Assembly: GCA_017633255.1 (NCBI GenBank)
Contig: JAGBPS010000024.1
Span: forward strand, 12,451 to 76,450
Origin: Bacteroidales bacterium
GTDB taxonomy: Bacteria; Bacteroidota; Bacteroidia; Bacteroidales; WCHB1-69
Direction of reading: 5' to 3'
DNA length: 64,000 nucleotides
The notes beneath the pieces were generated by a model, which worked only from the letters and a program-made list of their open reading frames with translations, did not search any database and was not told the DNA's origin. Within the stretch, counting starts at the first letter, position 1; each line of letters opens with the position of its first letter. Positions 40,001-56,295 of the stretch are shown here, piece after piece. The translations under genes were made by a program, and so were the position numbers.

Positions 40001-42971
40001 AGCCGATTTCAGTTATACTGTGACCGAAAAAGACCTTGGCAAAGTGGTTGTCCATGCCTTCGTCACGCAAAACAATAAACAATATGAAAAAAACTTAAAT
40101 TTCAATATTCCCTTTAGTCACAAAAAAATCGACTTTGATTTTCTGACTTTCCGTGACAAGACTCTGCCGGGCAGTCTGGAACAATATCAGATAAGACTGA
40201 AAGATAAAAATGGTGACAAGGTGGCGGCGGAATTGCTTTGCTCCATGTATGACGCTTCCTTAGACGCATTAGCTTCTCCAAACTCTTGGATTTCAAGTAT
40301 TTTCAATAGCAGCAAACCTTCTTACAACTATTCTTTCCGGCTCACTTCAAACAATGGAAACAGCTATTACCGGAATTTTCAGAAAACCTCCTATGATTTT
40401 ATCAGCCGGAACTATCCGCAGCTGTTATGGGAAATAAATAGCTGGCGTAGAAACCGCCTGATGATGAGTAAAGCCGCTGGCGCCTATACCACCAATGGTG
40501 TGGAGGTAAGCATGGAAATGGATTTGGCTGCTGACTTTGATGAAGCAGAAGAAGTTGTGTTAAATACTGTAGCTGACAATATCAAGGTCAACACTGATTT
40601 AAATCTTGATGAAAATCTGGAAAAAGGAACAGAATCTACAGACAATCAAATCCGCACCAATTTCAACGAAACCGCTTTCTTCTTCCCGCATCTGCAAACG
40701 GACAAAGAGGGCAATGTGCTGGTATCCTTCACCATACCCGAATCACTCACCCGCTGGAAACTGCAAGGTTTTGCCCATAACAACGAGCTGATGAGCGGCT
40801 ATTTCGAAAAATTTGTACAGACCCAAAAACCGCTGATGGTGGTGCCCAATATGCCGAGATTCCTGAGAGAAGGCGACCTGGTAGTTTTGTCCGCCAAAGT
40901 GGTCAACATGGGCGAGGAACAACAAAGCGGACAGGTAAAACTGACTTTGACCAATCCTTTCAACGGGGAAAAATTAGACTTGACCAACGGCATCTCTGCC
41001 CAGAGTTTCACCGTTGAGGCAGGACAAAGCAAGGAAGTGCACTTCACCCTGACGGTTCCCAAAGACTTGGGTGCGGTGACTTACCGCATAGAAGCGCAAA
41101 ATGACCAGAGTCCCGCGTATGCCGACGGGGAGGAAGCCACCCTGCCCATTCTCACCAACCGCATTCTGGTGACCGAGAGCCTGCCACTTCATATTTCAGG
41201 AAAAGGAAGCAAAACATTTACTTTCAACAAATTGAAAAACAGTTTCAGCATCGCCAACTCCACATTGAGCACCCAATCCTATACCCTGGAATTCACTCCC
41301 AATCCCATCTGGTATGCCATTCAGGCACTGCCCTATCTGATGGAATATCCTCACGAATGCAACGAGCAGGTTTTCAGCCGTTTGTATGCCAACACTTTGG
41401 CGGCTCACCTCGTCAATTCGCATCCACGCATCAAGACTGTTTTCGACAGCTGGCTGAATGAATCACCCAACGCTTTCTGCTCGCAGTTGGAAAAGAATCA
41501 GGAGCTGAAATCCGTCATTTTGGAGGAAACCCCCTGGGTGTTGGATGCCCAGAACGAGTCGATGCGGAAACAGAACATCGCCCTGCTGTTCGACCTGCAC
41601 CGCATGGCCAAAGAGAACAAGGCCGCCGTGACCAAATTGGAGAAAGCCCAGAACAATGACGGAGGCTGGTCGTGGTTCGGCAGCCATGAGAGCAGTCGTT
41701 ACATCACGCAACATATTGTAGCCGGCTGCGGTCATTTGCAAGTGCTTGGCGTTCAGAATCCTATGAGCGACCAAGTCATCAGGAAAGCGGTTAACTTCAT
41801 CGACAACAAAGCCCGTGAAATCTACGACAAGTGGTACAGAGGCAAAAAAGCAGACTATGATATGACAGACATCCACTACTTGTACGCCCGCAGTTTCTTC
41901 CTGAAACAGAAAGTCAGCACCACCAACAGCGAAGCCTACAATTATTATTATGCCAATCTGAAAAAGAACTGGAAAAAACAATCCATTTACACCCAGGCCA
42001 TGACGGCTTTGATCTGTTATCGCAATGGCGATACCCAGCTGGCCCAGGAAATTGTGGCGAACATCAAATCGAGAGCACAATATTCAGAAGAAATGGGCAT
42101 GTTCTGGAAGAAAGAAGGCTACGGCTACTTCTGGTACGAAGCCCCCATTGAGCGGCAAGCCCTGCTGATTGAGGCATTCAACACCATCACCAAGGACCAG
42201 AAATCTGTGGAACAGATGCAACTGTGGCTGCTCAAACAAAAACAGACGCAAAACTGGCCCACCACCAAGTCCACCACGGAAGCTGTATACGCCCTGTTGC
42301 TCAACAACACACAACTGGAGAACACCAACGGGGTGAAACTGACCATGGGTGACTGGAGCTACACCGAGGGCGACAAGAGCATGCAGGCCGAGGCCGGCAC
42401 CGGCTATATCAAAAAAGCATGGAAAGGCAGCGAAGTGACGGAAGACATGGCCACCATAAAAATTGACAAAAGCAGCAACGGTCCCGCATGGGGAGGTTTG
42501 TACTGGCAGTATCTGGAAAATCTGGACAAAGTTTCCCACAGCGATGACCAGAACTTCAGCATTCAAAAGAAACTCTACAAGGTGGAAATCGGAAACCGTG
42601 GCGAAGTGCTGGTGCCGATTACGGAAAATGCTCCTCTGAAAGTCGGTGACAAAGTGCGGGTGCGCACCGAAATCCGCTGTGACCGCGACATGGAATATGT
42701 CCACCTGAAAGACATGCGTGCCTCCGCTTTCGAGCCCGTGAATGTGCTTTCACAGTACAAACACCAGGATGGCCTGTGGTATTACGAGGCCACCGGCGAT
42801 GCCGCCACCAACTTCTTCATCGACTATCTGCCCAAGGGCACTTACGTGTTCGAATACACTCTGATTGCCACGATGGCAGGAACTTACAGCAACGGCATCA
42901 CCACCATCCAGTGCATGTACGCACCCGAATTCACCTCGCACAGCGAAGGTATTCAAGTTACGATTCAGTAA
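37041..42971 (+). CDS. Bacterial alpha-2-macroglobulin family protein (1976 aa) with intact CxEQ thioester motif
   Basis: Signal peptide and a very long MG-domain-type sequence. The thioester box YPHECNEQVFSRLYA has TGC AAC GAG CAG at 41358..41369 (in frame, Cys1440). A TED-like helical region follows. Confidence 0.85.
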   Translation: MKRITLIVSLFFLCNMVTFAQQSPKDIQRQLKLYEKQMQQYDNAFDTIYLSINQQIEQQKSNPGNVAIWQSCMAQLLSTYYQQNRWRIMDRTALSDEEANAVDFNTWDAQRFAKEIIKHYLLSIENKEALSKIPIREYAVLLDSVTSETYRPTLYDFLAFRFLDFLKDEIYELPIPEVPFDVNDERYWAEPQQFANIDIPATDELSFSYLTLYTLQELTLLHLNEPDCRALLDATLRRFEYLGSHSTLDNASDLQLAALTSMEKQYQGKEGYEMVTNALGNFYQKRGSQYDKNTHPEYKNDYIIAIDWFNKTIAAAPKSIEARNAKNDIKEIKSSEVKFSSNKIIPANQANLITFSYKNCENLYFRVVSCTKEDFELKRISDNKKFYAWLIQQKEIYDTELNAPNEKDYRGVSGHFLLPSLDAGFYVLLASDAAFTNENNKGYSFSALQVTNIDAQYRQNGKKLEFFVFDRTTGQPLKGAEVKVSLYPNYNASKASKSILLNCDADGKCSCEITDNAYTLRASASWQQDKYQIIEHQYWGRYHDDPKVNISEKAYTFTDRSIYRPGQTVYFKTILVETTSVENFILQQKTDNGQNFTVELYDANHQKVAEQQLTSNEYGSASGSFVLPNQGLTGSFHLQIKLESKYLDNHYFSVEEYKRPTFEITLDQPTEEFKIGQNVSVDGHVKAYAGYGIGGANVKYHVVRKASFPWWRWWWWQPTGKSQEIAHGETTSDNEGNFHIDFIAQPDLESQRYNPLYTYEISVDVTDITGETHSGSTRVLVSKIGLLINAEFPESIALNGKNQFPVKITNLAGETQKGTIHYRIEALQTPENYKYSCSEANYYLSDSIQMIQKLHYLDFQNETQKSNWKVLKTVKHGDFVTDGQNPFIIQDMKNLQEAYYKISLSTYDKDNNQIQEEYYVLIYDEKSKKCANYEAIWLTTSDKNTIEVGETIHFTLGSYLKNAMVLCEIVSNDELVESKWVKLNQGKADFSYTVTEKDLGKVVVHAFVTQNNKQYEKNLNFNIPFSHKKIDFDFLTFRDKTLPGSLEQYQIRLKDKNGDKVAAELLCSMYDASLDALASPNSWISSIFNSSKPSYNYSFRLTSNNGNSYYRNFQKTSYDFISRNYPQLLWEINSWRRNRLMMSKAAGAYTTNGVEVSMEMDLAADFDEAEEVVLNTVADNIKVNTDLNLDENLEKGTESTDNQIRTNFNETAFFFPHLQTDKEGNVLVSFTIPESLTRWKLQGFAHNNELMSGYFEKFVQTQKPLMVVPNMPRFLREGDLVVLSAKVVNMGEEQQSGQVKLTLTNPFNGEKLDLTNGISAQSFTVEAGQSKEVHFTLTVPKDLGAVTYRIEAQNDQSPAYADGEEATLPILTNRILVTESLPLHISGKGSKTFTFNKLKNSFSIANSTLSTQSYTLEFTPNPIWYAIQALPYLMEYPHECNEQVFSRLYANTLAAHLVNSHPRIKTVFDSWLNESPNAFCSQLEKNQELKSVILEETPWVLDAQNESMRKQNIALLFDLHRMAKENKAAVTKLEKAQNNDGGWSWFGSHESSRYITQHIVAGCGHLQVLGVQNPMSDQVIRKAVNFIDNKAREIYDKWYRGKKADYDMTDIHYLYARSFFLKQKVSTTNSEAYNYYYANLKKNWKKQSIYTQAMTALICYRNGDTQLAQEIVANIKSRAQYSEEMGMFWKKEGYGYFWYEAPIERQALLIEAFNTITKDQKSVEQMQLWLLKQKQTQNWPTTKSTTEAVYALLLNNTQLENTNGVKLTMGDWSYTEGDKSMQAEAGTGYIKKAWKGSEVTEDMATIKIDKSSNGPAWGGLYWQYLENLDKVSHSDDQNFSIQKKLYKVEIGNRGEVLVPITENAPLKVGDKVRVRTEIRCDRDMEYVHLKDMRASAFEPVNVLSQYKHQDGLWYYEATGDAATNFFIDYLPKGTYVFEYTLIATMAGTYSNGITTIQCMYAPEFTSHSEGIQVTIQ

Positions 42972-44067: not shown

Positions 44068-44829
44068 TCACCGGATAGAAAAGATCCCGTAAACTGCGGA
44101 GCCGCTGCCGGACATAGAGGCATAAACCGCACCACGGGAATAAAAGTCATCTTTGATTTCTTGCAACACAGGGTATTTGGGGAACAAGGAATCCTCAAAC
44201 TCATTATGGATGCAATGTTTCCATTCCGTTATGGGACGTTTTATCAGTTCATTTAGACTGATTGCGGGCTGCTGGGGATGCACACCGGCATAAGCCTCTT
44301 TGGTGGAAATGGAAAAATCGGGTTTGATCATCTCTATTCTGTAAGCGGACAAGTCCAATTCCAGTGGCGTCATGATCTCGCCACGGCCTGTGGCATATAC
44401 GGGACGGTTTTCAATGAAAAATGCTGTGTCGCTACCTAATTGGGCGGCCAAATCCCGCAATTCCGTGGAAGAGAGTTGCAATTGAAACAGCTCGTTGTAC
44501 ATTTTCAGAGCGAAAGCCGCATCGGCAGAACCGCCACCCAAACCAGCTCCGAAAGGAATATTTTTGGTCAATTTGATATCCACCCCATCAATATCGAACT
44601 GCCTCTGCAACAGACGGAAAGCTTTGACACAGAGATTGTCCTCGTCGGCGCAAAGATTTTCCACATTCTGCACCGAAAGCTTCACTCCTTTCTCTATCCT
44701 ATTGATTTCCAGCTCATCGCATAAAGTATGAACCGGATAAAACACCGTTTGCAGCTCATGAAAGCCGTCGCTCCGTTTGGAGACGATATAGAGGCCGAGA
44801 TTGATTTTGAAATTGGGATGGGTAATCAT
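44068..44829 (-). CDS. ispE: 4-diphosphocytidyl-2-C-methyl-D-erythritol kinase
   Basis: ATG at 44829 gives MITHPNFKINLGLYIV...; the tracked TTG at 44841 is an alternative start. GHMP kinase motif PFGAGLGGGSADAA. Confidence 0.9.
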   Translation of the reverse strand: MITHPNFKINLGLYIVSKRSDGFHELQTVFYPVHTLCDELEINRIEKGVKLSVQNVENLCADEDNLCVKAFRLLQRQFDIDGVDIKLTKNIPFGAGLGGGSADAAFALKMYNELFQLQLSSTELRDLAAQLGSDTAFFIENRPVYATGRGEIMTPLELDLSAYRIEMIKPDFSISTKEAYAGVHPQQPAISLNELIKRPITEWKHCIHNEFEDSLFPKYPVLQEIKDDFYSRGAVYASMSGSGSAVYGIFSIR

Positions 44830-44982: not shown

Positions 44983-45057
44983 CGGTCCGGACGAGACTCG
45001 AACTCGCGACCTCCTGCGTGACAGGCAGGCATTCTAACCAAACTGAACTACCGAACC
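44983..45057 (-). tRNA. tRNA-Asp (anticodon GTC)
   Basis: The reverse complement reads GGTTCGGTAGTTCAGTTTGGTTAGAATGCCTGCCTGTCACGCAGGAGGTCGCGAGTTCGAGTCTCGTCCGGACCG. It has a 7-bp acceptor stem, anticodon stem CCTGC/GCAGG with loop CTGTCAC, and T-arm GTTCGAGTC. CCA is not encoded. Confidence 0.95.
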
Positions 45058-45076
45058 TTCGTTTGTTTTGAGGATG

Positions 45077-45084
45077 CAAAGATA
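45077..45084 (-). promoter_or_regulatory. -7 promoter box TATCTTTG (minus strand) for tRNA-Asp
   Basis: Plus-strand CAAAGATA, 20 nt upstream of the tRNA 5' end. Confidence 0.55.
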
Positions 45085-45690
45085 CAACTTTTTTTAATGC
45101 AAAAACATTATGATGTAATTTTTTCTTCTAAATTTTATAACATTCTTATTTTTAGCTATTTATATTAATCTGATTATTTTCTGATTAGTCAAAACATTTC
45201 ACAAAAACAGCTTATGTTCATGGTTTTTTCGGAAAAATTCAGAATAATTCCACTTTTTTGCAATATTTCTGCCCTGATGATGACACCTACCTGCCGCGAA
45301 AGGCACGAGCCCAAACAGCCTGATTGGAACGTGCTGGATATGTACAGGGTAAGAAGAAGGTATGAAGAGGGTAGGCTAAAGGGTGCTTCCGACACATGTA
45401 AATAATAATCGAAAAGTATACCACTGTAATAATGCAAAAGTATACCATTCGAGCAGATTGTACTTTCCCCTTTTGCAAGCCTTGCAAAAATCTGAAACAC
45501 AATATTCTTTGCTGTATCTTTGTGGCAGATAAACGATTTTTTCAAATCATTCATTTTCTTATTTGTATACTAAATGATTTGTATATATTTTCCCTTTCGT
45601 ATAATATAAAAACGAACAGAACAAATACTCTTTTTTGTATCTTTGCATGTCGTAAATAAAACAAAAACAGATCCGCAAATTTAATATTCC

Positions 45691-45698
45691 TACTTTTG
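45691..45698 (+). promoter_or_regulatory. -7 promoter box TACTTTTG for the island operon (further boxes at 45515..45522 and 45638..45645)
   Basis: TAnnTTTG match 25 nt upstream of the ATG at 45723. The tracked TTG start at 45696 lies inside this box. Confidence 0.5.
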
Positions 45699-45722
45699 CA
45701 TAGTCAACGAAATATTTTCCTC

Positions 45723-46787
45723 ATGGCAACCTGGCAGAAAATAAAGATACAACGCGAGAATGGTGAGCTTGCTGAAGCGCAAGCGCCAGTAATCGTATCG
45801 GCAAGTCGTAGCACAGACATTCCTGCGTTCTATGCCGACTGGTTCTTCCATCGTTTGAAGGTGGGTTATTCAGCGTGGACCAACCCTTTCAACGGAGTGA
45901 AGAGTTTCGTTTCGTACGAGAAATGCCGATTTATCGTGTTTTGGTCGAAGAATCCCGAACCGTTACTGTTGCATCTTGACGAGCTGAATGAACAAGGTAT
46001 CGGCTGCTATATCCAATATACTCTGAATGATTATGTCTCTGAAGGTTTGGAGAAAAATGTTCCAGCTTTAGAAAAGCGTATCGACACTTTCAAGCAACTT
46101 GTGGACAAATTTGGCAAAGGTCGTGTTATATGGCGTTTCGACCCTCTGATTCTGACAGACAAGATTAGTTTGGATGATTTGTTGCATAAGGTAGAAAACA
46201 TCGGTGATCAACTCCAGGGTTACACCGAGAAACTTGTATTCAGTTATGCCGATATAGCCGCCTATCGGAAGGTGAAATCTAATCTTGATAAAAACCATGT
46301 AAGCTATACGGAATGGACTACTAACCAGATGGAGGAATTTGCTAAAGAACTATCGAAACTCAACCAAAAATGGAACTATCAGCTGGCAACCTGTGGCGAG
46401 AAGATTGACATAGAGCGATATGGAATTCATCACAATCGCTGTGTGGACGATGATTTAATGATACGATTGGCCTATAAAGACAAGGCTTTGATGGATTTCC
46501 TCGGAGTAGAGATAAAAACAGTTGAAAACTCATTGTTTGGGGCAGAACCGATTCCCGCCAATGCCATCATGCTTAATGATACTCAATTCGCTATCAAGAA
46601 AAAAAACAATCAGGACAAAGGCCAGCGACAGTTTTGTGACTGTATGGTGAGCAAGGACATCGGTGAGTACAACACCTGTCCGCACCTGTGCGAGTATTGC
46701 TATGCCAATGTGAGCAAAGAAAATGCGACAAAGAATTATAAACAACATGAAATGAACCCATTGGGGGAAACTATAACTGGGAAATGA
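45723..46787 (+). CDS. DUF1848-family protein with C-terminal radical-SAM-like CX3CX2C cysteine cluster
   Basis: 354 aa from MATWQKIKIQ. The C-terminus reads QFCDCMVSKDIGEYNTCPHLCEYCYAN (C-P-H-L-C-E-Y-C). The overall pattern (SASRSTDIPAFYADWF..., RFDPLI) fits DUF1848 as I remember it. Confidence 0.7.
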   Translation: MATWQKIKIQRENGELAEAQAPVIVSASRSTDIPAFYADWFFHRLKVGYSAWTNPFNGVKSFVSYEKCRFIVFWSKNPEPLLLHLDELNEQGIGCYIQYTLNDYVSEGLEKNVPALEKRIDTFKQLVDKFGKGRVIWRFDPLILTDKISLDDLLHKVENIGDQLQGYTEKLVFSYADIAAYRKVKSNLDKNHVSYTEWTTNQMEEFAKELSKLNQKWNYQLATCGEKIDIERYGIHHNRCVDDDLMIRLAYKDKALMDFLGVEIKTVENSLFGAEPIPANAIMLNDTQFAIKKKNNQDKGQRQFCDCMVSKDIGEYNTCPHLCEYCYANVSKENATKNYKQHEMNPLGETITGK

Positions 46788-46788
46788 T

Positions 46789-48480
46789 ATGGTTATCGAA
46801 CAAAACACCAACTACGCTTACAAACTAAAGCATATAGACCGCCCGACTTTTGAGGCCGTAAGGGACTTGTCCATTGAATTCTATCGCAGTTTGCCTCAGG
46901 AGTTACAGGACGAATTGTTTGAGACCTTAAACCGTGGCGTTGATATCTTAGATAGCGAACCACAGCTGACGACTTACATGTTCTCATACGGAAAGATGCA
47001 TAAGGCCAAATTGGAATATGCTTTTGACAATCTGACAGAAGGTTTTCTTTTGCAAGATGAAATAAACATCATTGACTATGGCTGCGGGCAGGCCATCGGC
47101 ACGATGTGCTATGCGGATTTTCTTCGTAATAACGGATATACGCAACAGATTAAGACCATTACATTAATTGAACCTTCTGAAATAAGCCTGAAACGGGCTG
47201 CACTTCACATTTCAGCATTCTTCCCTAATGCAGAAATTAAGACCGTGAACAAAACTTTTGATGAGTTAAACAAAGATGACATCTATTATGAAGAAGACAT
47301 TCCTACGCTGCATATTCTTTCCAATGTTTTAGATATTTTGGATTTCGATATTAATAAGTTTTCAAAATTGGTAAAAAGCAGTTTGAACGGATTTAACCAA
47401 TTTGTATGTGTAGGGCCTTTTTTTAATGATTCCCAAAAAGATGATCGAATGGTTGTATTTCGATCACTTAGAAACGAAGATGAATATTTCAACAAGATTC
47501 TAGACAAATTCGAATTAACCCCAGAAAAAGCATGGACAGCACAAATACTCATTTTCTCAGTTGGAGAAATAGCCAAAACTAAAGTTCCTATTACAGTAAC
47601 AAACGAGGAGATTGAAAATGACATAGAAGATAAATGTGGTGTATATAGCAAAGATGGTCAAAAATTGCTAAAGTGTACAGACTCACATATGGGTACATAT
47701 ACAATAAAAAAAGGCACAAAGGTGATATGTAAGAATGCTTTTGAAGGTTGTTTGTTCAGTCAAATAATCATACCCGATTCAGTCGTAAAAATTGAATGGC
47801 AAGCTTTTTTGGCATGTGAATTTTTGCAAACAATCACCATACCCAACTCTGTTACAAGTATCGATTATAATGCATTTGGTTTATGTGAATCCTTGCAACG
47901 AATCAACATTCCGGATTCGGTTTCTTTTTTGGGACCATCAACTTTTCATCGATGCATCTCTTTACAACAAGTCAAAATTTCCAATTCGTTAACATGTATA
48001 GACTACATGACTTTTTGTGAATGCACTTCTTTAAATCAAGTCCTCATACCAAATTCAACCACAATTTTAGGTGATCATGTATTTTCAAATTGCAAATCCT
48101 TGAAACAAATAATAATTCCCAACTTGGTAACATATATAGGGATGGGTGCTTTTTCAAACTGCACATCTCTAGAGCACATTACTCTTTCCAATTCATTACA
48201 TAACATTGGACCTTTCGCTTTTGAAAAATGCCAATCTTTGAAAACAATTGCTTGCCCTGACTCAGTTAAGCACATATATGCCGGAGCATTTTCCGAGTGT
48301 GTAAACTTACAACAAATCATTATTTCTGATTCGGCAACTGAGATTGGTGACGAGATTTATTATGAAAATGTTTTTAATAATTGTATGTCTTTACGACAGA
48401 TTATCATTCCCAAAGGAAGTACGGAGAAATTTAGGGAAATGCTTGATAAAGAATTGTGGGATAAACTAATAGAGGAATAG
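46789..48480 (+). CDS. Cytoplasmic fusion protein: N-terminal class I SAM-methyltransferase-like domain + C-terminal BspA-type leucine-rich repeats
   Basis: 563 aa with no signal peptide. It has Rossmann motif I IIDYGCGQAIGT, an acidic beta-2 end TLIEPSE, and LSNVLD. From about residue 283 (47635..48433) there are ~10 units of ~23 aa of the form I.IP.SV..I...AF..C.SL... The ATG lies 1 nt after the DUF1848 stop. Confidence 0.7.
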   Translation: MVIEQNTNYAYKLKHIDRPTFEAVRDLSIEFYRSLPQELQDELFETLNRGVDILDSEPQLTTYMFSYGKMHKAKLEYAFDNLTEGFLLQDEINIIDYGCGQAIGTMCYADFLRNNGYTQQIKTITLIEPSEISLKRAALHISAFFPNAEIKTVNKTFDELNKDDIYYEEDIPTLHILSNVLDILDFDINKFSKLVKSSLNGFNQFVCVGPFFNDSQKDDRMVVFRSLRNEDEYFNKILDKFELTPEKAWTAQILIFSVGEIAKTKVPITVTNEEIENDIEDKCGVYSKDGQKLLKCTDSHMGTYTIKKGTKVICKNAFEGCLFSQIIIPDSVVKIEWQAFLACEFLQTITIPNSVTSIDYNAFGLCESLQRINIPDSVSFLGPSTFHRCISLQQVKISNSLTCIDYMTFCECTSLNQVLIPNSTTILGDHVFSNCKSLKQIIIPNLVTYIGMGAFSNCTSLEHITLSNSLHNIGPFAFEKCQSLKTIACPDSVKHIYAGAFSECVNLQQIIISDSATEIGDEIYYENVFNNCMSLRQIIIPKGSTEKFREMLDKELWDKLIEE

Positions 48481-48528
48481 TGCAAATAGATTTTTTAATA
48501 TTTTTATGATAATCAGAACACATAAAAC

Positions 48529-49806
48529 ATGAAAATAAAAAAGTTAATAATCAACAACTTTCGAGCATTTAAGCATGCAGAAATAGATTTTGATGATTTT
48601 AGTTGTATTATTGGCAAAAACGACACGGGCAAATCAACAATCTTGGCAGCATTAGAATGGTTTTTTAATTCTAACAAGGAATTAGACGAAAACGATTTTG
48701 CAGCAGCTAGTTTTGATTGGAGTGAGTGCGAACATCCTGCATTTCATGATGAAATAGCAGGTGAAACATTTCAAGGAGAGACTGTTAAAGAGTTTATTTA
48801 TGATGGTTTTTGCATATCAGTTGATGTGTATTTCAGTGACGCAAACCTTCCAAATAGGACAGAAGAATCTGATTTCATCTTCAACCATGACTTTGTGTTA
48901 AAAGATGGTAATATCTGTATAAGTAAATACATGTATCACCCGTATAAAGATATAAATCATCCTTCTATTGGAAAACAGATGGGATATCGCATGAAAAATT
49001 GTTTTTTTGAAAAAATGCAAAAACCATTTTCCGATTGTACTATTGAAGAATTGAAAACAGTATATAATGAGATTAGGAACAACGCTGATGATTTATGCAA
49101 AAAATTATATCATTTAGAGGAAGAACGTCAAAATAAAAAAAATAGAGGTGTAGGGACATTGGCTATTAATACCGAAATACGAGATGAAGTATTAAGAATA
49201 AAAAGACTTATATGTTCTGAATTATATAATCACTACAGTAACAAAGGTGAAAAGACTTGTGAAAAATGGATGCCTTTTGATAATATAGATAGCATTGAAT
49301 TTCATTTCGGTTTTGATTTACCTCAATTTATATTATATACATCAAAAACGCCAACAAACGATTATCTGAACAAGTTATTTACACCATATAATGCCATCGG
49401 ATTATACAAGTCTATTGAAAAAGCCAAAGTACACACAACAGAAAAGCTTTCTGAATTCCTAAATTTAAATGGCCTGAATGAAAATATACATATTAAAGAA
49501 AATGAAAAAATAGACTTGTTTACAAAAGACAGTTTGATATTCAAACATAATGACTTGCCATTGAACATTCCTCTCAAAAACAGAGGGGAGGGTTTTCAGC
49601 TAAAGATAAAAAATGCTGTATTTAGGTTGCTTACAGAAACTCGGACAAGAAACCAAATCAATATCATTTTTGCTTTTGAAGAACCCGAAACACATTTGCA
49701 TCCGTCTGCTCAAATTGAAATGTATCAAACACTAAAGGCACTATCAGAAAATATTAATTATCAGGTGATTATTACAACACATTCCCCTTATATTGTTAAA
49801 AATTAG
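48529..49806 (+). pseudogene. ABC/AAA_15-type ATPase (OLD/PrrC/RecF-like), reading frame terminates 7 codons after the H-loop; probably continues in 49800..50273 after a -1 shift
   Basis: Walker A GKNDTGKST, signature-like NRGEGFQ, Walker B IIFAFEEPETHLHP, H-loop ITTHSPYIVKN-stop. The stop lies just after an A5 run (49798..49802). Confidence 0.6.
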
Positions 49807-49820
49807 CTCAAAACGACATA

Positions 49821-50273
49821 GTGCCTATTGTAGTAAAACAAGAAGCAGCCCAAGAATCAAAAATAAGCAAACTTGACGAACGTGTTTTGCCATACATTTC
49901 AATGAACGAAATCAATTATATAGCTTTTGAAGAGCCGTCGATAGAGTATCACATTGAATTGTATGGTTATATGCAAAACAAGTTGGACAAAACTGTTCGG
50001 GAATTAGACGATTGGCTAAAAGGGTGCGGAATCATCAATGGTGATAACCTATATGACTGGTATGATACGAGAAATTTAGAAAAAACAGAAGACAAAAAAA
50101 CTTTACCTTATTGTGTTCGTAATAATATTGACCATCCATTGGTTGATGATGCCTGCGATTCAAGAAAACATAATGCTTATGTGAATAACAGTCAATTCAA
50201 CAATAGTGATTTGATTAGAAAAAGCATTGAAATTATGCGGGAAGCGATAATCAACAATGTAGAATTTATATGA
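49821..50273 (+). CDS. 150-aa ORF: probable C-terminal continuation of the ATPase, carrying a HEPN-like Rx4H motif
   Basis: This frame is open from 49800 (KLAQNDIVPIVVKQE...). The motif CVRNNIDHP has CGT at 50118..50120 and CAT at 50133..50135. There is no independent ATG until codon 28. Confidence 0.45.
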   Translation: MPIVVKQEAAQESKISKLDERVLPYISMNEINYIAFEEPSIEYHIELYGYMQNKLDKTVRELDDWLKGCGIINGDNLYDWYDTRNLEKTEDKKTLPYCVRNNIDHPLVDDACDSRKHNAYVNNSQFNNSDLIRKSIEIMREAIINNVEFI

Positions 50274-50313
50274 GAGAACATTGAAACCATGCAAATAATA
50301 AAAACACAACAAG

Positions 50314-50571
50314 ATGAACGATAACGAAAAAGCATTAATGCATCACTTTGAGATGATTGCACATTCGCAAGGAACGATGCAATTTCTATACAATTTGTTT
50401 GGCGGGGGCTTTGTTGCCAAACAACAAGCAAAAGAAACAATTGATTTTTGCATTGCAAAAATGAAACGGGATATTGAAAGCAATCCAAATTTGACACGAG
50501 AGCAAAAAGATCATGAGATTTCAATTAGAGAATGTTGGTTTAATGCAATGAAAAATTCATTGGGATTGTAA
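50314..50571 (+). CDS. Hypothetical small helical protein (85 aa), last gene of the island operon
   Basis: ORF only, co-directional, 40 nt after the previous stop, and followed by a hairpin. No recognisable motif. Confidence 0.4.
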   Translation: MNDNEKALMHHFEMIAHSQGTMQFLYNLFGGGFVAKQQAKETIDFCIAKMKRDIESNPNLTREQKDHEISIRECWFNAMKNSLGL

Positions 50572-50576
50572 CTTTA

Positions 50577-50619
50577 GCATAATAATCCCGTATGAAATTA
50601 ACGCACACTATTATTATGC
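50577..50619 (+). terminator. Hairpin at the end of the island operon
   Basis: GCATAATAAT (50577..50586) is the exact reverse complement of ATTATTATGC (50610..50619), with a 23-nt loop. It starts 6 nt after the stop at 50571. Confidence 0.5.
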
Positions 50620-50743
50620 ATGAATTAATTAGCAGAAAAGTAATAGCAAATTTTTGCTTCCTTAATTTAAGCGTAAATCTCGGCAACTGATAGTTGTCAA
50701 TATGAGGAAATAGATTAAAATAATATCGAAAGAGAAGACAACC

Positions 50744-50824
50744 ATGCTAATCAAACAAAATACCAACCACATATACAAGCTAAAATATATAGAAAAACCG
50801 ACCTTTGACATGTTCGAAGTATGA
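50744..50824 (+). pseudogene. 27-codon relic of a second methyltransferase-LRR-type gene (5' end only)
   Basis: Translates MLIKQNTNHIYKLKYIEKPTFDMFEV-stop, compared with MVIEQNTNYAYKLKHIDRPTFEAVRD at 46789. That is 14 identities in 26 residues plus conservative changes. Confidence 0.65.
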
Positions 50825-50863
50825 CCATTCCTCAAATAGTTAGTGTATTTAAAAATTTGTGCG

Positions 50864-50871
50864 TAACTTTG
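50864..50871 (+). promoter_or_regulatory. -7 promoter box TAACTTTG
   Basis: TAnnTTTG match 9 nt upstream of the ATG at 50880. The tracked start at 50859 lies upstream of the box. Confidence 0.5.
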
Positions 50872-50879
50872 CAAACGAT

Positions 50880-52358
50880 ATGAACAAAACAACAATCATA
50901 GAATCATTGCTCAAGGGTGAGCATATCACACTGGAAGCAAAACGGGCCGAGAATGATTTACCCAGATCGGTTTGGGAGACCTATTCGGCATTCGCCAATA
51001 CACACGGCGGATTGATTTTGCTTGGTGTTATTGAAAATCTAAAGGAGAAAGACATTAACAAGCGTTTCACCATCACTGGCGTTGATGATGCCGAGAAAAT
51101 ACGCAAAGACTTCTGGAATATTGTCAATAATGCAGAGAAAGTGAACATCAATCTACTTAAGGACGAGGATGTTGAAACGATTGACATGGATGGTAAAACC
51201 GTAGTAGCTATTAATGTGCCAAGGGCTGACTACACGGTACGCCCTGTATATATCAATAACAATCCTCTTCGGGGAACTTTCAAGCGTAACCACGAGGGCG
51301 ACTATCACTGTGCTGAACACGAAGTAAGGATGATGATGCGCGATGCCAACGAGGCTGGTAACGATGGCATGTTACTGGAATATTACACGATGGATGATAT
51401 TGATATTCCAACTCTGGAGCGCTACAGAAACCATTTCAGCAGCAGACACCCTGATCATGTGTTTAACAGTCTTGAACATAAGTCATTTCTAAAAGAACTG
51501 GGCGGCTATCATGTTGACAGAAAAGACCAAAGCGAATGTTTAACCATGGCTGGTTTATTGATGTTCGGCAAAGGCCATCCCATTCGTGAACGCTTTGAGA
51601 ACCTGCGATTAGATTATATTGACAAATCTGGGTTGATTGGTGATCAGCGATACAGCGACCGCCTAACCTACGACGGCACATGGGAAAACAATCTCTTCAA
51701 TTTTGTTACAATGGTATTGCCCAAGTTGCTGAGAGATTTACCGAGACCATTCAAGATGGATGGTATAGTGCGTGAAGACGACACTCCTCAACACAAGGCT
51801 GTTCGTGAAGCTCTGACAAATGCCATTATCCACGCAGACCTGATGATAAACGGGGTTCTGAAAGTGGAGAAATATGACGATAAACTTGTACTCACAAACC
51901 CCGGATTACTGAAGCTCCCCGTAGAACAAATCTATGCAGGCGACGAATCGAGAGCAAGAAACCAGCACATGCAAACCATGTTCCGCATGATAGGATTCGG
52001 GGAAAACTTGGGATCTGGTTTTCCCTTAATATTGAGTGCCTGGAATGAGAAACACTGGCTAAAACCGGAGTTAATTGAACAGCCAGAGCTAATGCAGGTA
52101 AAACTCATTCTGACAATTGAGGCAAAAGATGTCACAAAAGATGTCACAAAAGATGTCACAAAAGAACTATCTGAAAGACAGGTGCTTATATTAGAATTGA
52201 TAGCAGAAAATGCTATGGCGACAATATCAGAAATGTCACAAAAGACAGGGGTTGCACCTAGAACCATTATACGAGATATTGAGCATTTGCAATCCTTGGG
52301 CATTCTTGTTCGAATTGGTGGCCGCAAGGAAGGTCATTGGGAAATTAGCAATTTATAG
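50880..52358 (+). CDS. AlbA_2 (Schlafen-like) DNA-binding domain / HATPase_c_4-like / C-terminal winged-HTH protein
   Basis: 492 aa from MNKTTIIESLLKGEHITLEAKRAENDLP...AFANTHGGLILLGV (AlbA_2 pattern). The C-terminal wHTH reads LSERQVLILELIAENAMATISEMSQKTGVAPRTIIRDIEHLQSLGIL. Confidence 0.7.
   Translation: MNKTTIIESLLKGEHITLEAKRAENDLPRSVWETYSAFANTHGGLILLGVIENLKEKDINKRFTITGVDDAEKIRKDFWNIVNNAEKVNINLLKDEDVETIDMDGKTVVAINVPRADYTVRPVYINNNPLRGTFKRNHEGDYHCAEHEVRMMMRDANEAGNDGMLLEYYTMDDIDIPTLERYRNHFSSRHPDHVFNSLEHKSFLKELGGYHVDRKDQSECLTMAGLLMFGKGHPIRERFENLRLDYIDKSGLIGDQRYSDRLTYDGTWENNLFNFVTMVLPKLLRDLPRPFKMDGIVREDDTPQHKAVREALTNAIIHADLMINGVLKVEKYDDKLVLTNPGLLKLPVEQIYAGDESRARNQHMQTMFRMIGFGENLGSGFPLILSAWNEKHWLKPELIEQPELMQVKLILTIEAKDVTKDVTKDVTKELSERQVLILELIAENAMATISEMSQKTGVAPRTIIRDIEHLQSLGILVRIGGRKEGHWEISNL
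52125..52160. repeat. In-frame 12-nt tandem repeat AAAGATGTCACA x3 (KDVT x3)
   Basis: Read directly. A fourth partial copy, ATGTCACAAAAGA, follows about 65 nt downstream. Confidence 0.9.
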
Positions 52359-52614
52359 CATATGACAATGCCCACCATCCTCCTCATAATCAGCATATAC
52401 CTTGTCCTCAACCTCGCCTTGTTGGCTTTTAGGTGCACTGAAGTATAAGGAATAATATTACCCCGTTGGAGGCTGTGCGAACATGATTCCATGAGGTACG
52501 GCACCGCCGTGAGATTTATGCCACTACCTCGCCCTTTTTTCCGCTCCTTATCCATCACAGGGAATAAGTGTGAAGTACTATTTTATTCAGTGTAATATAT
52601 AAAAGAAATTTTTG

Positions 52615-55700: not shown

Positions 55701-56295
55701 GGACCATGTATTGGCCAGCGGCGAAGACGTGAACGTACTCGTACTCGACACCGAAGTTTATTCTAACACTGGTGGACAGTCCTCAAAGGCTACTCCGGCA
55801 GGTGCTGTCGCCAAATTTGCCGCTTCTGGTAAGAAGGTGCGCAAGAAAGACCTCGGCATGATTGCCAAGAGCTACGGCTATGTGTATGTGGCACAGGTAG
55901 CTATGGGCGCTTCCCAGGCTCAGTACTTCAAGGCCATCAAGGAAGCTGAAGCTTATCCTGGACCGTCATTGATCATCTGCTATGCTCCCTGTATCAACCA
56001 CGGTATCAAGATTGGTATGGGTCACTCACAGCTCGAAGAGAAGCTCGCCGTTGATTGCGGTTACTGGCACCTGTGGCGCTTCAACCCCGCCGAGGAAGAG
56101 GCCGGCCAGAACGGTTTCCACTTGGACAGCAAGGAACCCAACTGGGCCGACTTCCAGAAATTCATCATGGGCGAGGTCCGTTACAACTCCCTGATGAAGA
56201 CCTTCCCGGAAGAAGCCAAAGAACTTTTCGCCAAGACCGAGCAGTTCGCGAAACTGAGATACGAAGGATATAAGAAGTTGAGTGAAGGGAAATAA
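52738..56295 (+). CDS. nifJ: Pyruvate:ferredoxin (flavodoxin) oxidoreductase
   Basis: 1185 aa with two ferredoxin-type clusters (CIQCNQCSLVCP, CTGCGNCADVCP) and the TPP motif GGDGWAYDIGFGG. Confidence 0.95.
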   Translation: MAEKKFMTCDGNCAAAHVAYMFSEVAAIYPITPSSPMAEYIDEWSAGGRKNIFGETVKVVEMQSEAGAAGAVHGSLQAGALTTTYTASQGLLLMIPNMYKIAGELLPGVFHVSARALAAQALSIFGDHADVMSARQTGFAMLATGSVQEIMDLAPVAHLAAIEGRVPFLHFFDGFRTSHEIQKVEAADQSKIEKLVNWKALKEYRERALNPEHPVTRGTAQNPDIYFQTRELQNKYYDALPDIVAKYMKKLSKITGREYAPFTFYGAEDATDIIIAMGSITDVIKTVIDKENKAGKKLGLVSVHLYRPFSVKYLGQVLPETVKRICVLDRTKEPGANGDPLYLDVVEAFANCKDIPAANKPLIIGGRFGLSSKDTTPAQILAVYKNLAAPKPMNQFTVGINDDVTHRSLKVGKEISILPKGTFEAKFYGLGADGTVGANKNSIKIIGDNTNKYSQAYFDYDSKKSGGYTCSHLRFGDQPILAPYLVGTPDFVAVHVPSYLKKYDCLRGLKKNGTFLYNSPWSVADTKKHLPDFVKKYLALNNINMYIIDATKIAAEIGLGNRTNTILQSAFFKISGVIPYDLAVEQMKKFIVKSYGKKGEDIVNMNYAAVDRGGEITKVDIPAEWAKLECSTDFVFEHNDSDPEFINKVMRPMVAQCGNDLPVSAFKEIVDGTFPAGTTAYEKRGVATVVPEWNPANCIQCNQCSLVCPHAAIRPVVMTDAELKKAPKGMAAIDIKAPKEFAGMHFRMQVSVMDCTGCGNCADVCPAKEKALVMKPFESQLDEAKNWDYSQKKVTYKDNLIDKYATAKNSQFAQPLFEFSGACAGCGETPYIKTITQLFGERMIVANATGCSSIYGGSAPATPYCKNYRSGKGVAWANSLFEDNAEFGLGMATATRKMRDRVERVMREAIANCDCCSTELKAMFQEWIDNRECGMKTAELADKIVAACEKCGCDYCKQIVDLKDHLVKKSQWIFGGDGWAYDIGFGGLDHVLASGEDVNVLVLDTEVYSNTGGQSSKATPAGAVAKFAASGKKVRKKDLGMIAKSYGYVYVAQVAMGASQAQYFKAIKEAEAYPGPSLIICYAPCINHGIKIGMGHSQLEEKLAVDCGYWHLWRFNPAEEEAGQNGFHLDSKEPNWADFQKFIMGEVRYNSLMKTFPEEAKELFAKTEQFAKLRYEGYKKLSEGK

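What the first reader, a model, noticed from the sequence alone, without database searches (positions are those of the whole stretch)
45723..46787. DUF1848 protein with CX3CX2C cluster translationally coupled to a SAM-binding-fold protein
The C-terminus reads CDC...C-P-H-L-C-E-Y-C-Y. This is the CX3CX2C spacing that binds the SAM-cleaving 4Fe-4S cluster in radical SAM enzymes, but here it sits at the C-terminal rather than the N-terminal end. As I recall, this is exactly the feature noted for the uncharacterised DUF1848 family. Its TGA (46785..46787) is followed after a single nucleotide by the ATG of the MTase-like/LRR gene. That implies co-translation and probably a complex of two SAM-related proteins. 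Radical SAM chemistry in immunity has a precedent in the viperins, and spore photoproduct lyase is a DNA-acting example.
Basis: partly seen in the sequence, partly recalled or inferred. Interest (0 to 1): 0.7.

Follow-up and report, generated by a model that had tools for sequence, protein, structure and literature searches.

The report
Iron-sulfur DUF1848 enzyme paired with methyltransferase-fold partner
An uncharacterised, probably iron-sulfur enzyme and a tightly coupled methyltransferase-like partner form a conserved two-gene core that different bacteria attach to helicases, nucleases or repeat "sensor" domains, which suggests an undescribed anti-phage or nucleic-acid-modifying system.

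Summary
ORF 45723-46787 (+) encodes a 354-aa DUF1848 protein (Pfam E 2e-92) ending in C319-X3-C323-X-Y-C326. Its TGA lies one nucleotide before the ATG of a 563-aa protein.

- **DUF1848:** seven cysteines are invariant across 60 relatives, which suggests two metal centres. The model (pLDDT 96.8) is a beta/alpha barrel with a Cys-rich tail and has no significant PDB neighbour. The weak best matches are radical SAM domains. Only the cluster segment resembles the N-terminal cluster loop of SPL-like radical SAM proteins (E 4e-6). Radical SAM chemistry is plausible but unproven.
- **Partner:** its N-domain is a class I methyltransferase fold with an intact motif I, fused here to BspA-type LRRs.
- **Linkage:** 51 of 75 species loci carry a methyltransferase-fold gene beside DUF1848, usually with a gap of -4 to +4 nt. 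That domain is joined to LRR, Sel1, WG repeats, SF1/SF2 helicases or NERD nucleases.
- **ATPase:** the AAA_15 gene is not a constant partner (3 of 83 loci).

My best reading is the catalytic core of an uncharacterised mobile conflict system. No experiment supports a defence role, and the chemistry is unknown.

The parts
45638..45698 (+). Two matches to the Bacteroidota -7 promoter consensus TAnnTTTG (45638-45645 and 45691-45698), 25-85 nt upstream of the DUF1848 ATG. This is the likely promoter of the cassette.
   Evidence: pattern search; sequence. There is no + strand match between 45723 and the partner's start at 46789. The consensus itself comes from my own knowledge of Bacteroides promoters. 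Function is inferred.
45723..46787 (+). DUF1848 gene (354 aa). A beta/alpha barrel (strands about 24-27, 70-75, 94-100, 135-142, 170-175, 220-223) is followed by a Cys-rich tail.
   Evidence: Pfam PF08902 at E 2e-92. AF2 pLDDT 96.8, pTM 0.93. Invariant residues: D32, K76, N102, Y104, E110, W137, R138, D140, P141 and seven Cys.
46392..46442 (+). Codons of invariant C224 (46392-46394) and C240 (46440-46442). These are candidate ligands of a second metal centre.
   Evidence: The ligand role is inferred.
46635..46700 (+). Cys-rich tail: C305-x-C307 (46635-46643) and C319-X3-C323-X-Y325-C326 (46677-46700).
   Evidence: Invariant in 60 relatives. Residues 310-331 match the beta1 plus cluster loop of a COG1533/PA0069-type radical SAM family in hhalign, at probability 87% and E 4e-6.
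46785..46791 (+). Stop-start junction: TGA, one nucleotide, ATG.
   Evidence: The same kind of junction (gap -4 to +4) occurs in 31 other species loci.
46789..47559 (+). N-terminal 'MTN' domain of the partner (aa 1-257). It has a helical cap and a 7-stranded class I SAM-methyltransferase fold. Motif I is D96-Y-G98-C99-G100-Q101. Other conserved residues are E128-P-S130, R136, and H175/S178/N179/D182.
   Evidence: AF2 pLDDT 90.2. Foldseek against the PDB gives 593 hits at E<=1e-3, with METTL17/Rsm22, Bud23, CmoA and EgtD on top. The Pfam match to Methyltransf_23 is only subthreshold (E 0.005).
47722..48480 (+). C-terminal BspA-type leucine-rich repeats of the partner (aa about 312-563). This is the variable module of the cassette.
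   Evidence: Pfam LRR_5 at E 1e-57. It is replaced by Sel1 repeats in L006 while MTN stays 64% identical. Identity falls from DUF1848 (68-88%) to MTN (46-68%) to the C-terminus (0-67%).
48529..50273 (+). Neighbour, probably a separate system: an AAA_15/AriA/OLD-like ATPase (48529-49806) plus a 150-aa ORF (49821-50273). Together they correspond to one 582-aa protein in a relative, so the gene is split here.
   Evidence: It is present in only 3 of 83 DUF1848 loci.
50314..50571 (+). 85-aa ORF of unknown function that recurs downstream of LRR-type cassettes. Whether it belongs to the system is uncertain.
   Evidence: Found in the window-type loci and in L012 and L013 only. No family hits.
50880..52358 (+). 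Neighbour: a protein with Schlafen/AlbA_2, HATPase_c_4 and HTH domains. It often flanks these cassettes. Whether it belongs to the system is uncertain.
   Evidence: AlbA_2 relatives lie next to DUF1848 in 9 loci and in L083.

Best explanation
Genes 45723-46787 and 46789-48480 form the two-gene core of an uncharacterised, horizontally mobile conflict (probably anti-phage) cassette.

- **Gene 1** is a DUF1848 enzyme: a beta/alpha barrel whose Cys-rich C-terminal tail most likely carries two metal centres. One is bound by C319/C323/C326, a CX3CX(Tyr)C motif of radical SAM type that seems to have moved from the N-terminal to the C-terminal end of the barrel. The other involves C224/C240/C305/C307.
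- **Gene 2** is translated in step with gene 1. It starts with a class I methyltransferase-fold domain that keeps its SAM-binding motifs and ends in a swappable module, LRRs in this window.

Proposed working:
1. The variable module recognises an invader. LRR, Sel1 or WG repeats would bind a protein ligand. Helicase or nuclease modules in relatives would engage nucleic acid.
2. The constant pair acts as a SAM-using heterodimer.
3. That heterodimer chemically modifies or damages a nucleic acid or a nucleotide.

Shown: family membership, residue conservation, both folds, gene coupling, modular architectures and the low-GC island context. Inferred: Fe-S binding, SAM cleavage, the physical complex, the target and the defence role.
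For: **DUF1848 protein**
- Pfam DUF1848 at E 2e-92.
- Seven invariant Cys plus Y325, Y327 and A328 in 60 relatives.
- A confident barrel model.
- The highest-probability structural neighbours are radical SAM domains. In the PDB these are Elp3 chains 8asw_C, 5l7j and 8pty_C (probability 0.99, rmsd 4-5 A). Among viral models they are PFL-activase, a peptide maturase and QueE-like proteins.
- The cluster segment aligns to the beta1 plus cluster loop of a bona fide PF04055 family at E 4e-6. With a doubled DUF1848 profile, the alignment runs from the C-terminal tail into the N-terminal barrel.
- DUF1848 occurs naturally fused to that radical SAM family and to an N6/N4 DNA methylase.

**Partner**
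- Class I methyltransferase fold with motif I conserved.

**Linkage**
- 51 of 75 species loci have a methyltransferase-fold gene in the cluster, and 35 of these abut DUF1848.
- Three of three reverse look-ups from MTN proteins found DUF1848 immediately upstream.
- Phage-contig relatives at 28-31% identity also have an overlapping methyltransferase-like gene.

**Modularity and context**
- MTN is fused to LRR, Sel1, WG repeats, DpdF/PsyrT-like SF2 helicases or UvrD/GajB/MkoA-like SF1 helicases. It also sits in operons with NERD, PD-(D/E)XK and 2CompART/ARG proteins.
- The published UG25 reverse transcriptases are methylase fusions with a DUF1848 accessory gene (PMC9226505). The PADLOC model RTasDUF1848 hits this protein at E 9e-41.
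- GC falls to 0.30-0.37 between housekeeping genes.
- An 88%-identical copy sits in a completely different genomic context.
- The gene is rare in phages.
Against: - There is no PF04055 match, and no PDB sequence or significant fold match.
- Barrel-level profile similarity to radical SAM is weak (E 0.011) and is not separated from block-shuffled controls.
- The canonical SAM-binding motifs of radical SAM enzymes could not be located.
- Cysteine geometry could not be measured.
- 24 of 75 loci show no methyltransferase-fold neighbour. About half of these are short contigs, but some have full flanks.
- Distant family members sit next to AlbA-unrelated genes such as AlkB, a non-specific endonuclease, or macro plus SIR2. 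The family as a whole may therefore have a repair or housekeeping role.
- The published defence-island score for UG25 was inconclusive.
- No experiment exists for any member.
Confidence: 0.55

Rival explanations
1. DUF1848 is a non-radical Fe-S nucleic-acid enzyme, such as a nuclease, glycosylase or lyase. Its clusters would be structural or DNA-sensing, as in EndoIII/MutY, AddB or Cas4. It would form a restriction-modification-like pair with the methyltransferase-fold partner.
For: - Seven Cys could split 4+3 with the CX3CX2C completed by C305 or C307.
- The barrel carries invariant D, K, N, E, R and D residues at strand ends, typical of acid-base or phosphate-binding TIM-barrel active sites.
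- There is a natural fusion to an N6/N4 DNA methylase, like type IIG enzymes.
- Neighbours include a DNA/RNA non-specific endonuclease and an HsdR-like gene.
- There is no PF04055 hit.
Against: - The invariant aromatic residue before the last Cys and the CxYCYA signature are shared with a genuine radical SAM family.
- With seven Cys and no invariant His, one site keeps only three protein ligands. This is an inference.
- MTN lacks the (D/N/S)PP(Y/F) or PCQ motifs and a target-recognition domain of DNA methylases. Its nearest folds are RNA and small-molecule methyltransferases.
- MTN is fused to LRR or Sel1 sensors, which is not a restriction-modification architecture.
Confidence: 0.2
2. The pair is a housekeeping or repair function, for example a tRNA/rRNA or DNA base modification or lesion repair. 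It would merely sit in a variable region and would not be an immune system.
For: - The family is large: 3,641 clusters at 50% identity.
- JGI names members 'DNA repair photolyase'.
- Stand-alone copies exist.
- Neighbours include AlkB.
- The best fold neighbours of both proteins are RNA-modification enzymes: Elp3, and Rsm22/Bud23/CmoA.
Against: - The distribution is patchy.
- The same gene sits in different genomic contexts, in a low-GC island.
- Domain swapping of the partner's C-terminus, and fusions to defence-type helicases and nucleases, are not expected of a housekeeping modification enzyme.
Confidence: 0.15
3. The AAA_15 ATPase downstream is a functional third component, so that DUF1848, MTase-LRR and ATPase form one system.
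For: - Same strand, with a 48-nt gap and no terminator-like site between the genes.
- The same order is seen in L012.
Against: - The ATPase accompanies DUF1848 in only 3 of 83 loci.
- It is absent from the 88%-identical cassette in L004-L007.
- It resembles AriA/OLD/GajA ATPases of independent systems.
- It is split by a frameshift in this window.
Confidence: 0.08
4. The cysteines bind only structural zinc, and the protein uses neither Fe-S nor SAM.
For: No metal is observed in any data here. Elp3, the best fold neighbour, also has a Cys-rich Zn site (my own knowledge).
Against: The exact CX3CX(aromatic)C spacing and the following YA are invariant and match a radical SAM cluster loop by profile. 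Seven Cys with no conserved His is unusual for two Zn sites.
Confidence: 0.05

Closest known systems
Pfam DUF1848 (PF08902)
   Same: Full-length match (profile positions 1-262 of 262) at E 2e-92. All family-invariant residues are present.
   Different: Nothing differs. It is a member of the family, but the family has no known function or structure.
UG25 defence-associated reverse transcriptase systems (methylase-RT fusion plus a DUF1848 accessory gene; Mestre et al. 2022, PMC9226505)
   Same: DUF1848 is paired with a methyltransferase-domain protein that carries a further module. The PADLOC model RTasDUF1848 hits this protein at E 9e-41.
   Different: There is no reverse transcriptase here or in any of the 80 surveyed loci. 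The partner carries LRRs instead. Homology between MTN and the UG25 methylase domain was not shown: no PADLOC DRT model hit the partner.
COG1533 / SPL-like radical SAM proteins (PA0069, Rv2578c, 'mobile pair B' and Gp37/Gp68-type families)
   Same: Both share the beta-strand plus CxxxCxYCYA cluster segment (hhalign E 4e-6). There are possible shared SK(N)P, EPxxPxxxR and (D/E)P(L/M)L motifs. Natural fusions of the two exist, and both are annotated 'DNA repair photolyase' by JGI.
   Different: The cluster segment is at the C-terminus rather than after beta1. There are four extra invariant Cys. There is no PF04055 match, and barrel similarity is only E 0.011.
Radical SAM enzymes of immunity: prokaryotic viperins, and OpnA of Ophion (bioRxiv 10.1101/2025.09.30.679545)
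   Same: A possible radical SAM-type enzyme in a defence-like gene cluster (for Ophion; viperins from my own knowledge).
   Different: Those are canonical PF04055 enzymes with nucleotide-metabolism partners. This one is non-canonical, is paired with a methyltransferase fold and sensor or helicase modules, and has no sequence relationship to them.
Non-canonical radical SAM enzymes with a C-terminal cluster, such as ThiC (my own knowledge)
   Same: A barrel with the SAM-cleaving cluster supplied from a C-terminal segment.
   Different: ThiC uses a CX2CX4C motif on a full (beta/alpha)8 barrel. No homology was tested or implied.
Class I SAM-dependent methyltransferases (METTL17/Rsm22, Bud23, CmoA, EgtD folds)
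   Same: A seven-stranded Rossmann fold, the motif I GxGxG-type loop, and an acidic residue after beta2.
   Different: No close family: TM 0.35-0.5, about 12% identity, and Pfam below threshold. It has its own conserved helical cap (Y63, G68, H71, K74). Catalytic competence is unknown.

Membership tests
DUF1848 (PF08902) | Match to the family HMM above the gathering score over its full length | tested here: met
   310.2 bits against a cut-off of 30.5, covering profile positions 1-262 of 262.
DUF1848 (PF08902) | C-terminal cysteine cluster conserved in the family | tested here: met
   C305, C307, C319, C323 and C326, plus C224 and C240, are invariant in 60 relatives.
Radical SAM superfamily | CX3CX2C motif with an aromatic residue before the third Cys | tested here: met
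   The motif is C319-PHL-C323-E-Y325-C326. Y325 is invariant.
Radical SAM superfamily | [quoted passage not shown] | tested here: not met
   The motif lies at residues 319-326 of 354, after the barrel. It is collinear with a radical SAM family only if a circular permutation is assumed.
Radical SAM superfamily | Sequence match to PF04055 or to a solved radical SAM enzyme | tested here: not met
   No PF04055 hit at E<=0.01. There are no PDB sequence hits with the single sequence or with the profile.
Radical SAM superfamily | Partial (beta/alpha)6 TIM-barrel core | tested here: inconclusive
   The AF2 secondary structure shows six to seven beta/alpha units. The best-probability Foldseek hits are radical SAM domains, but only at E 0.01-0.05 and TM about 0.33, among generic TIM barrels.
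Radical SAM superfamily | SAM-binding motifs (GGE, ribose motif, GxIxGxxE) and a cluster positioned over the barrel mouth | tested here: inconclusive
   Only a weak motif-level alignment was found (SKNP, EPxxPxxxR, DPL; E 0.011).
Radical SAM superfamily | Reductive cleavage of SAM to a 5'-deoxyadenosyl radical | not testable with these tools
   This needs a biochemical assay.
Class I SAM-dependent methyltransferase fold (the partner's N-domain) | Seven-stranded Rossmann-like fold with the beta6-beta7 hairpin | tested here: met
   AF2 pLDDT 90.2 with strand order as expected. 593 PDB hits at E<=1e-3, and the top 50 listed are methyltransferases or methyltransferase-fold proteins such as GRAS domains.
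Class I SAM-dependent methyltransferase fold (the partner's N-domain) | Motif I glycine-rich loop and an acidic residue after beta2 | tested here: met
   D96, G98, C99, G100, Q101 and E128 are invariant or nearly so.
Class I SAM-dependent methyltransferase fold (the partner's N-domain) | Match to a curated methyltransferase family above threshold | tested here: not met
   Methyltransf_23 scores 17 bits against a cut-off of 27. PADLOC C3a159 hits at E 0.0015.
DRT / UG25 system | Presence of the UG25 reverse transcriptase next to DUF1848 | tested here: not met
   No reverse transcriptase domain appears in the window cassette or in any partner protein scanned.
Anti-phage defence system (generic) | Location in a variable, horizontally acquired island with defence-type neighbours and modular domain swapping | tested here: met
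Anti-phage defence system (generic) | Demonstrated protection against phage | not testable with these tools
   No experimental report was found. Only three papers mention DUF1848.

The most novel reading that the evidence does not exclude
DUF1848 and the MTN domain together form a new kind of split, circularly permuted radical SAM enzyme. The Fe-S barrel has lost its own N-terminal cluster loop, and perhaps its SAM-binding motifs. It would work only with a methyltransferase-fold subunit that holds SAM. This heterodimer would be the shared effector of a large, undescribed family of anti-phage systems whose sensors are LRR, Sel1 or WG repeats, helicases and reverse transcriptases.
Probability: 0.25. 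Interest if true: 0.85.

Novelty: new variant of a known kind. Interest (0 to 1): 0.62.

Why it matters
DUF1848 is a large family: about 3,600 clusters at 50% identity. It has no structure, no function and almost no literature. Three results here make it testable:
- its cysteine set is larger than previously noted, with seven invariant Cys;
- its cluster segment is related to that of SPL-like radical SAM enzymes but sits at the opposite end of the barrel;
- it is bound genetically to a private methyltransferase-fold domain that different bacteria combine with helicases, nucleases, ADP-ribosyltransferases, reverse transcriptases or repeat sensors.

If the pair proves to be a SAM-using effector, it would add a new enzymatic principle to bacterial immunity beside viperins and Ophion. 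It would also give a function to the DUF1848 accessory gene of UG25 reverse transcriptases. If it is instead a repair or modification enzyme, it would still define a new non-canonical Fe-S barrel family.

Tried and rejected
- **PDB by sequence.** The single protein and the 60-sequence profile found nothing. The fused radical SAM protein P0158 also found nothing.
- **PDB by fold.** Foldseek gave no match at E<=1e-3, so no fold assignment rests on a solved structure.
- **Model coordinates.** I looked for them to measure Cys-Cys distances, but they are not exposed.
- **Barrel-only hhalign against the radical SAM core.** The result was E 0.011, with one 31-column motif. Reversed control scored 16.0 and block-shuffled controls reached the same score, so I treat barrel homology as only suggestive.
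- **First genome scan.** The scan with the 60-sequence alignment failed because it had no conserved stretch. I redid it with 12 sequences.
- **Structure prediction of MTN.** I redid it with database hits only.
- **Natural DUF1848-MTN fusions.** None were found among the 270 homologues fetched by then.
- **Further MTN relatives.** Iterative search in the loci added nothing. Two other methyltransferase-fold classes were then found by separate seeds.
- **Empty-site comparison.** A look-up of the exact IspE protein returned only the same strain.
- **ATPase linkage.** Rejected.
- **Other family libraries.** NCBIfam and PHROGs have no model for DUF1848.
- **Literature.** Searches for PF08902 and for permuted radical SAM enzymes returned nothing.
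- **Promoter and terminator scans.** The sigma-70 and terminator scans were uninformative for a Bacteroidota sequence.
Full report
**1. The observation**

The + strand ORF from ATG 45723 to TGA 46785-46787 encodes 354 residues. The protein ends ...QFC305DC307MVSKDIGEYNTC319PHLC323EYC326YAN.... Nucleotide 46788 separates the stop from ATG 46789 of a 563-aa ORF that ends at 48480.

Pfam places the first protein in DUF1848 over the full model (E 2e-92, 310 bits against a cut-off of 30.5). CX3CX2C occurs once in all six-frame ORFs of at least 100 aa in the window (32,767 residues).

An upstream TTG at 45696 is an unlikely start, for two reasons. Relatives begin at the ATG. Two matches to the Bacteroidota -7 consensus TAnnTTTG lie at 45638-45645 and 45691-45698 (the consensus is from my own knowledge).

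**2. The DUF1848 protein**

- **Family size.** A full scan of 1.84 billion representatives found 3,641 clusters at E<=1e-3.
- **Conservation.** Sixty full-length relatives of 35-61% identity share seven invariant cysteines: C224, C240, C305, C307, C319, C323 and C326. Y325, Y327 and A328 are also invariant, giving a CX3CxYCYA signature. So are D32, K76, N102, Y104, E110, W137, R138, D140 and P141. No histidine is invariant.
- **What the cysteines imply.** Seven cysteines fit two metal centres, and one of them would have only three protein ligands. This is an inference.
- **Model.** AlphaFold2 gives a very confident model (pLDDT 96.8, pTM 0.93). It has six to seven beta/alpha units followed by a loop-rich Cys tail and a terminal helix.
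- **Solved structures.** None resembles it significantly. Foldseek against the PDB has no hit at E<=1e-3. The highest-probability, lowest-rmsd matches are the radical SAM domain of Elp3 (probability 0.99, TM about 0.33), among generic TIM barrels.
- **Viral models.** The weak matches are again enriched in radical SAM enzymes: PFL-activase, a peptide maturase and QueE-like proteins. One crAss-like phage protein is a real match (E 6e-10).
- **Sequence searches.** Searches of the PDB by sequence and by profile find nothing.

**3. Relation to radical SAM enzymes**

Among the representatives, DUF1848 is naturally fused to PF04055 domains of the PA0069 / Rv2578c / 'mobile pair B' type, in both orders. 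It is also fused to an N6/N4 DNA methylase.

I collected 117 stand-alone relatives of that radical SAM domain and compared profiles. The results were:

- DUF1848 residues 310-331 (SKDIGEYNTCPHLCEYCYANVS) align with the N-terminal beta1 plus cluster loop (vkTVNCCtGCShdCxYCYAkgM) at probability 87% and E 4e-6.
- With a doubled DUF1848 profile, the alignment runs from the C-terminal tail into the N-terminal barrel. It pairs SKNP with SKP, TLNDY...EPxxPxxxR with FTIGA...EPNAPxxxR, and WRFDPL with SVEPML.
- This is the pattern expected of a circular permutation. However, the barrel part alone scores only E 0.011. Reversed control scored lower (16.0), but block-shuffled controls reached the same score.

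I therefore treat the cluster-loop relationship as reasonably supported and the permuted-barrel homology as suggestive. Canonical membership criteria fail: there is no PF04055 match, and the cluster is not after beta1.

**4. The partner protein**

- **Fold.** Residues 1-257 ('MTN') give a confident model (pLDDT 90.2) with a helical cap and the seven-stranded class I methyltransferase fold.
- **Fold neighbours.** Foldseek finds 593 PDB hits at E<=1e-3. METTL17/Rsm22, lmo1582, GRAS, Bud23, CmoA and EgtD are on top. All are distant (TM 0.35-0.5, about 12% identity), so there is no close family.
- **Conserved residues.** Motif I (D96-x-G98-C99-G100-Q101), E128-P-S130 after beta2, R136, H175/S178/N179/D182, and a cap motif (Y63, G68, H71, K74) are invariant or nearly so.
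- **What this means.** SAM binding is likely. Catalysis is unknown. Pfam matches are below threshold.
- **C-terminal half.** It consists of BspA-type LRRs (E 1e-57). I see no signal peptide by eye, which suggests a cytoplasmic ligand-binding role. This is an inference.

**5. Linkage of the two genes**

I fetched 80 species-level genomic loci that encode relatives of 48-84% identity.

- **Frequency.** Of the 75 loci with an intact DUF1848 ORF, 51 carry a same-strand methyltransferase-fold gene within 6 kb. They fall into three classes:
 - 41 of the MTN family;
 - 3 with a C3a159-type domain at the C-terminus of a NERD/PD-(D/E)XK/SF1 helicase protein;
 - 7 of a CheR/Methyltransf_23-like class.
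- **Adjacency.** In 35 loci the genes directly abut, with gaps of +1 (11 loci), -4 (10), +2 (5), +4 (3) and +3 (2).
- **Loci without a partner.** About half of the 24 'none' loci are short contigs.
- **Reverse direction.** Look-ups from three MTN proteins all found DUF1848 immediately upstream.
- **Distant relatives.** Phage-contig relatives at 28-31% identity have an overlapping methyltransferase-like gene of about 280 aa upstream.

The linkage is real and runs deep in the family.

**6. Modularity of the cassette**

The MTN domain occurs in many arrangements:

- alone (229-243 aa);
- fused to LRR_5, Sel1 or WG repeats;
- fused to UvrD-like SF1 helicases (840-1,050 aa; best PADLOC models are NERD+UvrD, GajB and RTasHel);
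- fused to DpdF/PsyrT-like SF2 helicases (1,400-1,750 aa);
- in operons of the form DUF1848, SF1 helicase, 2CompART/2CompARG, X-MTN;
- in operons of the form NERD-methyltransferase, SF1 helicase, an unknown protein of about 750 aa, DUF1848.

Among close relatives, identity falls from DUF1848 (68-88%) through MTN (46-68%) to the C-terminal module (0-67%, with outright domain replacement). This gradient fits a constant catalytic core with a variable recognition module.

The published UG25 reverse transcriptases (methylase-RT fusion plus a DUF1848 gene) fit the same scheme (PMC9226505). I could not show that their methylase domain is MTN.

**7. Genomic context in the window**

- **Island.** The cassette lies in a low-GC island (0.30-0.37 against 0.43-0.55). 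Its flanks are housekeeping genes: an alpha-2-macroglobulin-like gene, an arginase-fold gene and ispE upstream, and pyruvate:ferredoxin oxidoreductase downstream.
- **Mobility.** An 88%-identical DUF1848 with a Sel1-type partner sits in an unrelated context. Its flanks are RuvX, def and LytTR on one side, and ADP-ribosylglycohydrolase and YhcG on the other.
- **ATPase.** The downstream AAA_15/AriA/OLD-like ATPase occurs in only 3 of 83 loci. Here it is split into 425-aa and 150-aa ORFs that correspond to one 582-aa protein in L012. I regard it as a separate, possibly decayed, system.
- **Phages and plasmids.** DUF1848 is rare in both. It appears in 8 of 50,697 phage records, 6 plasmids and 25 loci in IMG/VR, and it has no PHROG.

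**8. Interpretation**

The shown facts are:

- a non-canonical, probably Fe-S barrel enzyme;
- a private SAM-binding-fold partner;
- conserved translational coupling;
- extensive module swapping with nucleic-acid-targeting and sensor domains;
- island context.

They are best explained by the catalytic core of an uncharacterised conflict system. In this reading the variable module recognises the invader, and the pair then uses SAM to modify or damage a nucleic acid or nucleotide.

Radical chemistry, the physical complex, the target and the immune role are all inferred. I put the overall reading at about 0.55.

The main rivals are:

- a non-radical Fe-S nuclease or glycosylase in a restriction-modification-like pair (0.2);
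- a repair or housekeeping modification function (0.15).

Distant family members next to AlkB, an endonuclease, or macro plus SIR2 keep the second rival alive for the family at large.

**9. Novelty**

- Only three held papers mention DUF1848, and none addresses function.
- Radical SAM enzymes in immunity are known: viperins (my own knowledge) and Ophion. Those are canonical enzymes with other partners.
- This is a new variant of a known kind. The new elements are a non-canonical radical-SAM-like enzyme and an obligate methyltransferase-fold partner, within a modular system family that has not been described beyond the UG25 note.

Noticed in passing
window 48529-50273 (+): The AAA_15/AriA/OLD-like ATPase (425 aa) and the following 150-aa ORF align end to end with a single 582-aa protein in locus L012. 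The gene is therefore split by a frameshift near 49800, next to an A5 run, in this strain and in L001/L002. It may be a pseudogene or phase-variable.
   Followed up: partly
window 52123-52165 (+), inside the AlbA_2/Schlafen-like gene 50880-52358: A perfect 12-nt tandem repeat (CAAAAGATGTCA, 3.6 copies) encodes KDVT repeats just before the C-terminal HTH. Two near-identical metagenomic copies differ by 4 residues in product length (492 against 488 aa), which suggests copy-number variation.
   Followed up: partly
window 45000-52400: A low-GC island (0.30-0.37) lies between ispE (44068-44829, -) and pyruvate:ferredoxin oxidoreductase (52738-56295, +). It carries several defence-type genes: DUF1848/MTN-LRR, an AAA_15 ATPase, and an AlbA_2-HATPase_c_4-HTH protein.
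   Followed up: partly
L041, L052, L060, L062, L064, L065 (for example L065 5995-11349): A conserved four-gene operon: DUF1848, a short SF1 UvrD-like helicase, a 2CompART/2CompARG ADP-ribosyltransferase-glycohydrolase protein, and a protein of about 510 aa with a C-terminal MTN domain. It looks like a distinct system subtype.
   Followed up: partly
P0151, P0155, P0158, P0267 (representative proteins): These are natural fusions of DUF1848 with a PA0069/Gp37-Gp68-type canonical radical SAM domain, in both orders. Each protein therefore carries two CxxxCxYCYA motifs.
   Followed up: partly
BFVD entry A0A7M1RU68 (uncultured crAss-like phage cr272_1, 1278 aa): This is the only significant structural match of the DUF1848 model (E 6e-10, TMq 0.53). 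It is a large phage protein annotated only as 'NTF2 domain-containing', and it may contain a DUF1848-like domain.
   Followed up: no
window 45189-45554 (-): A 121-aa ORF is called as a gene in the metagenome records, between ispE and DUF1848. I did not scan it against any family library, and it overlaps an 11-nt tandem repeat at 45348-45373. It may be spurious.
   Followed up: no
window 37041-42971 (+): A 1,976-aa bacterial alpha-2-macroglobulin-like protein (MG2, A2M and bMG10 domains) lies upstream. A similar A2M gene lies near another DUF1848 cassette (L097), and LytTR genes flank the cassettes in L004-L006 and L097. These may be recurrent insertion neighbourhoods.
   Followed up: no
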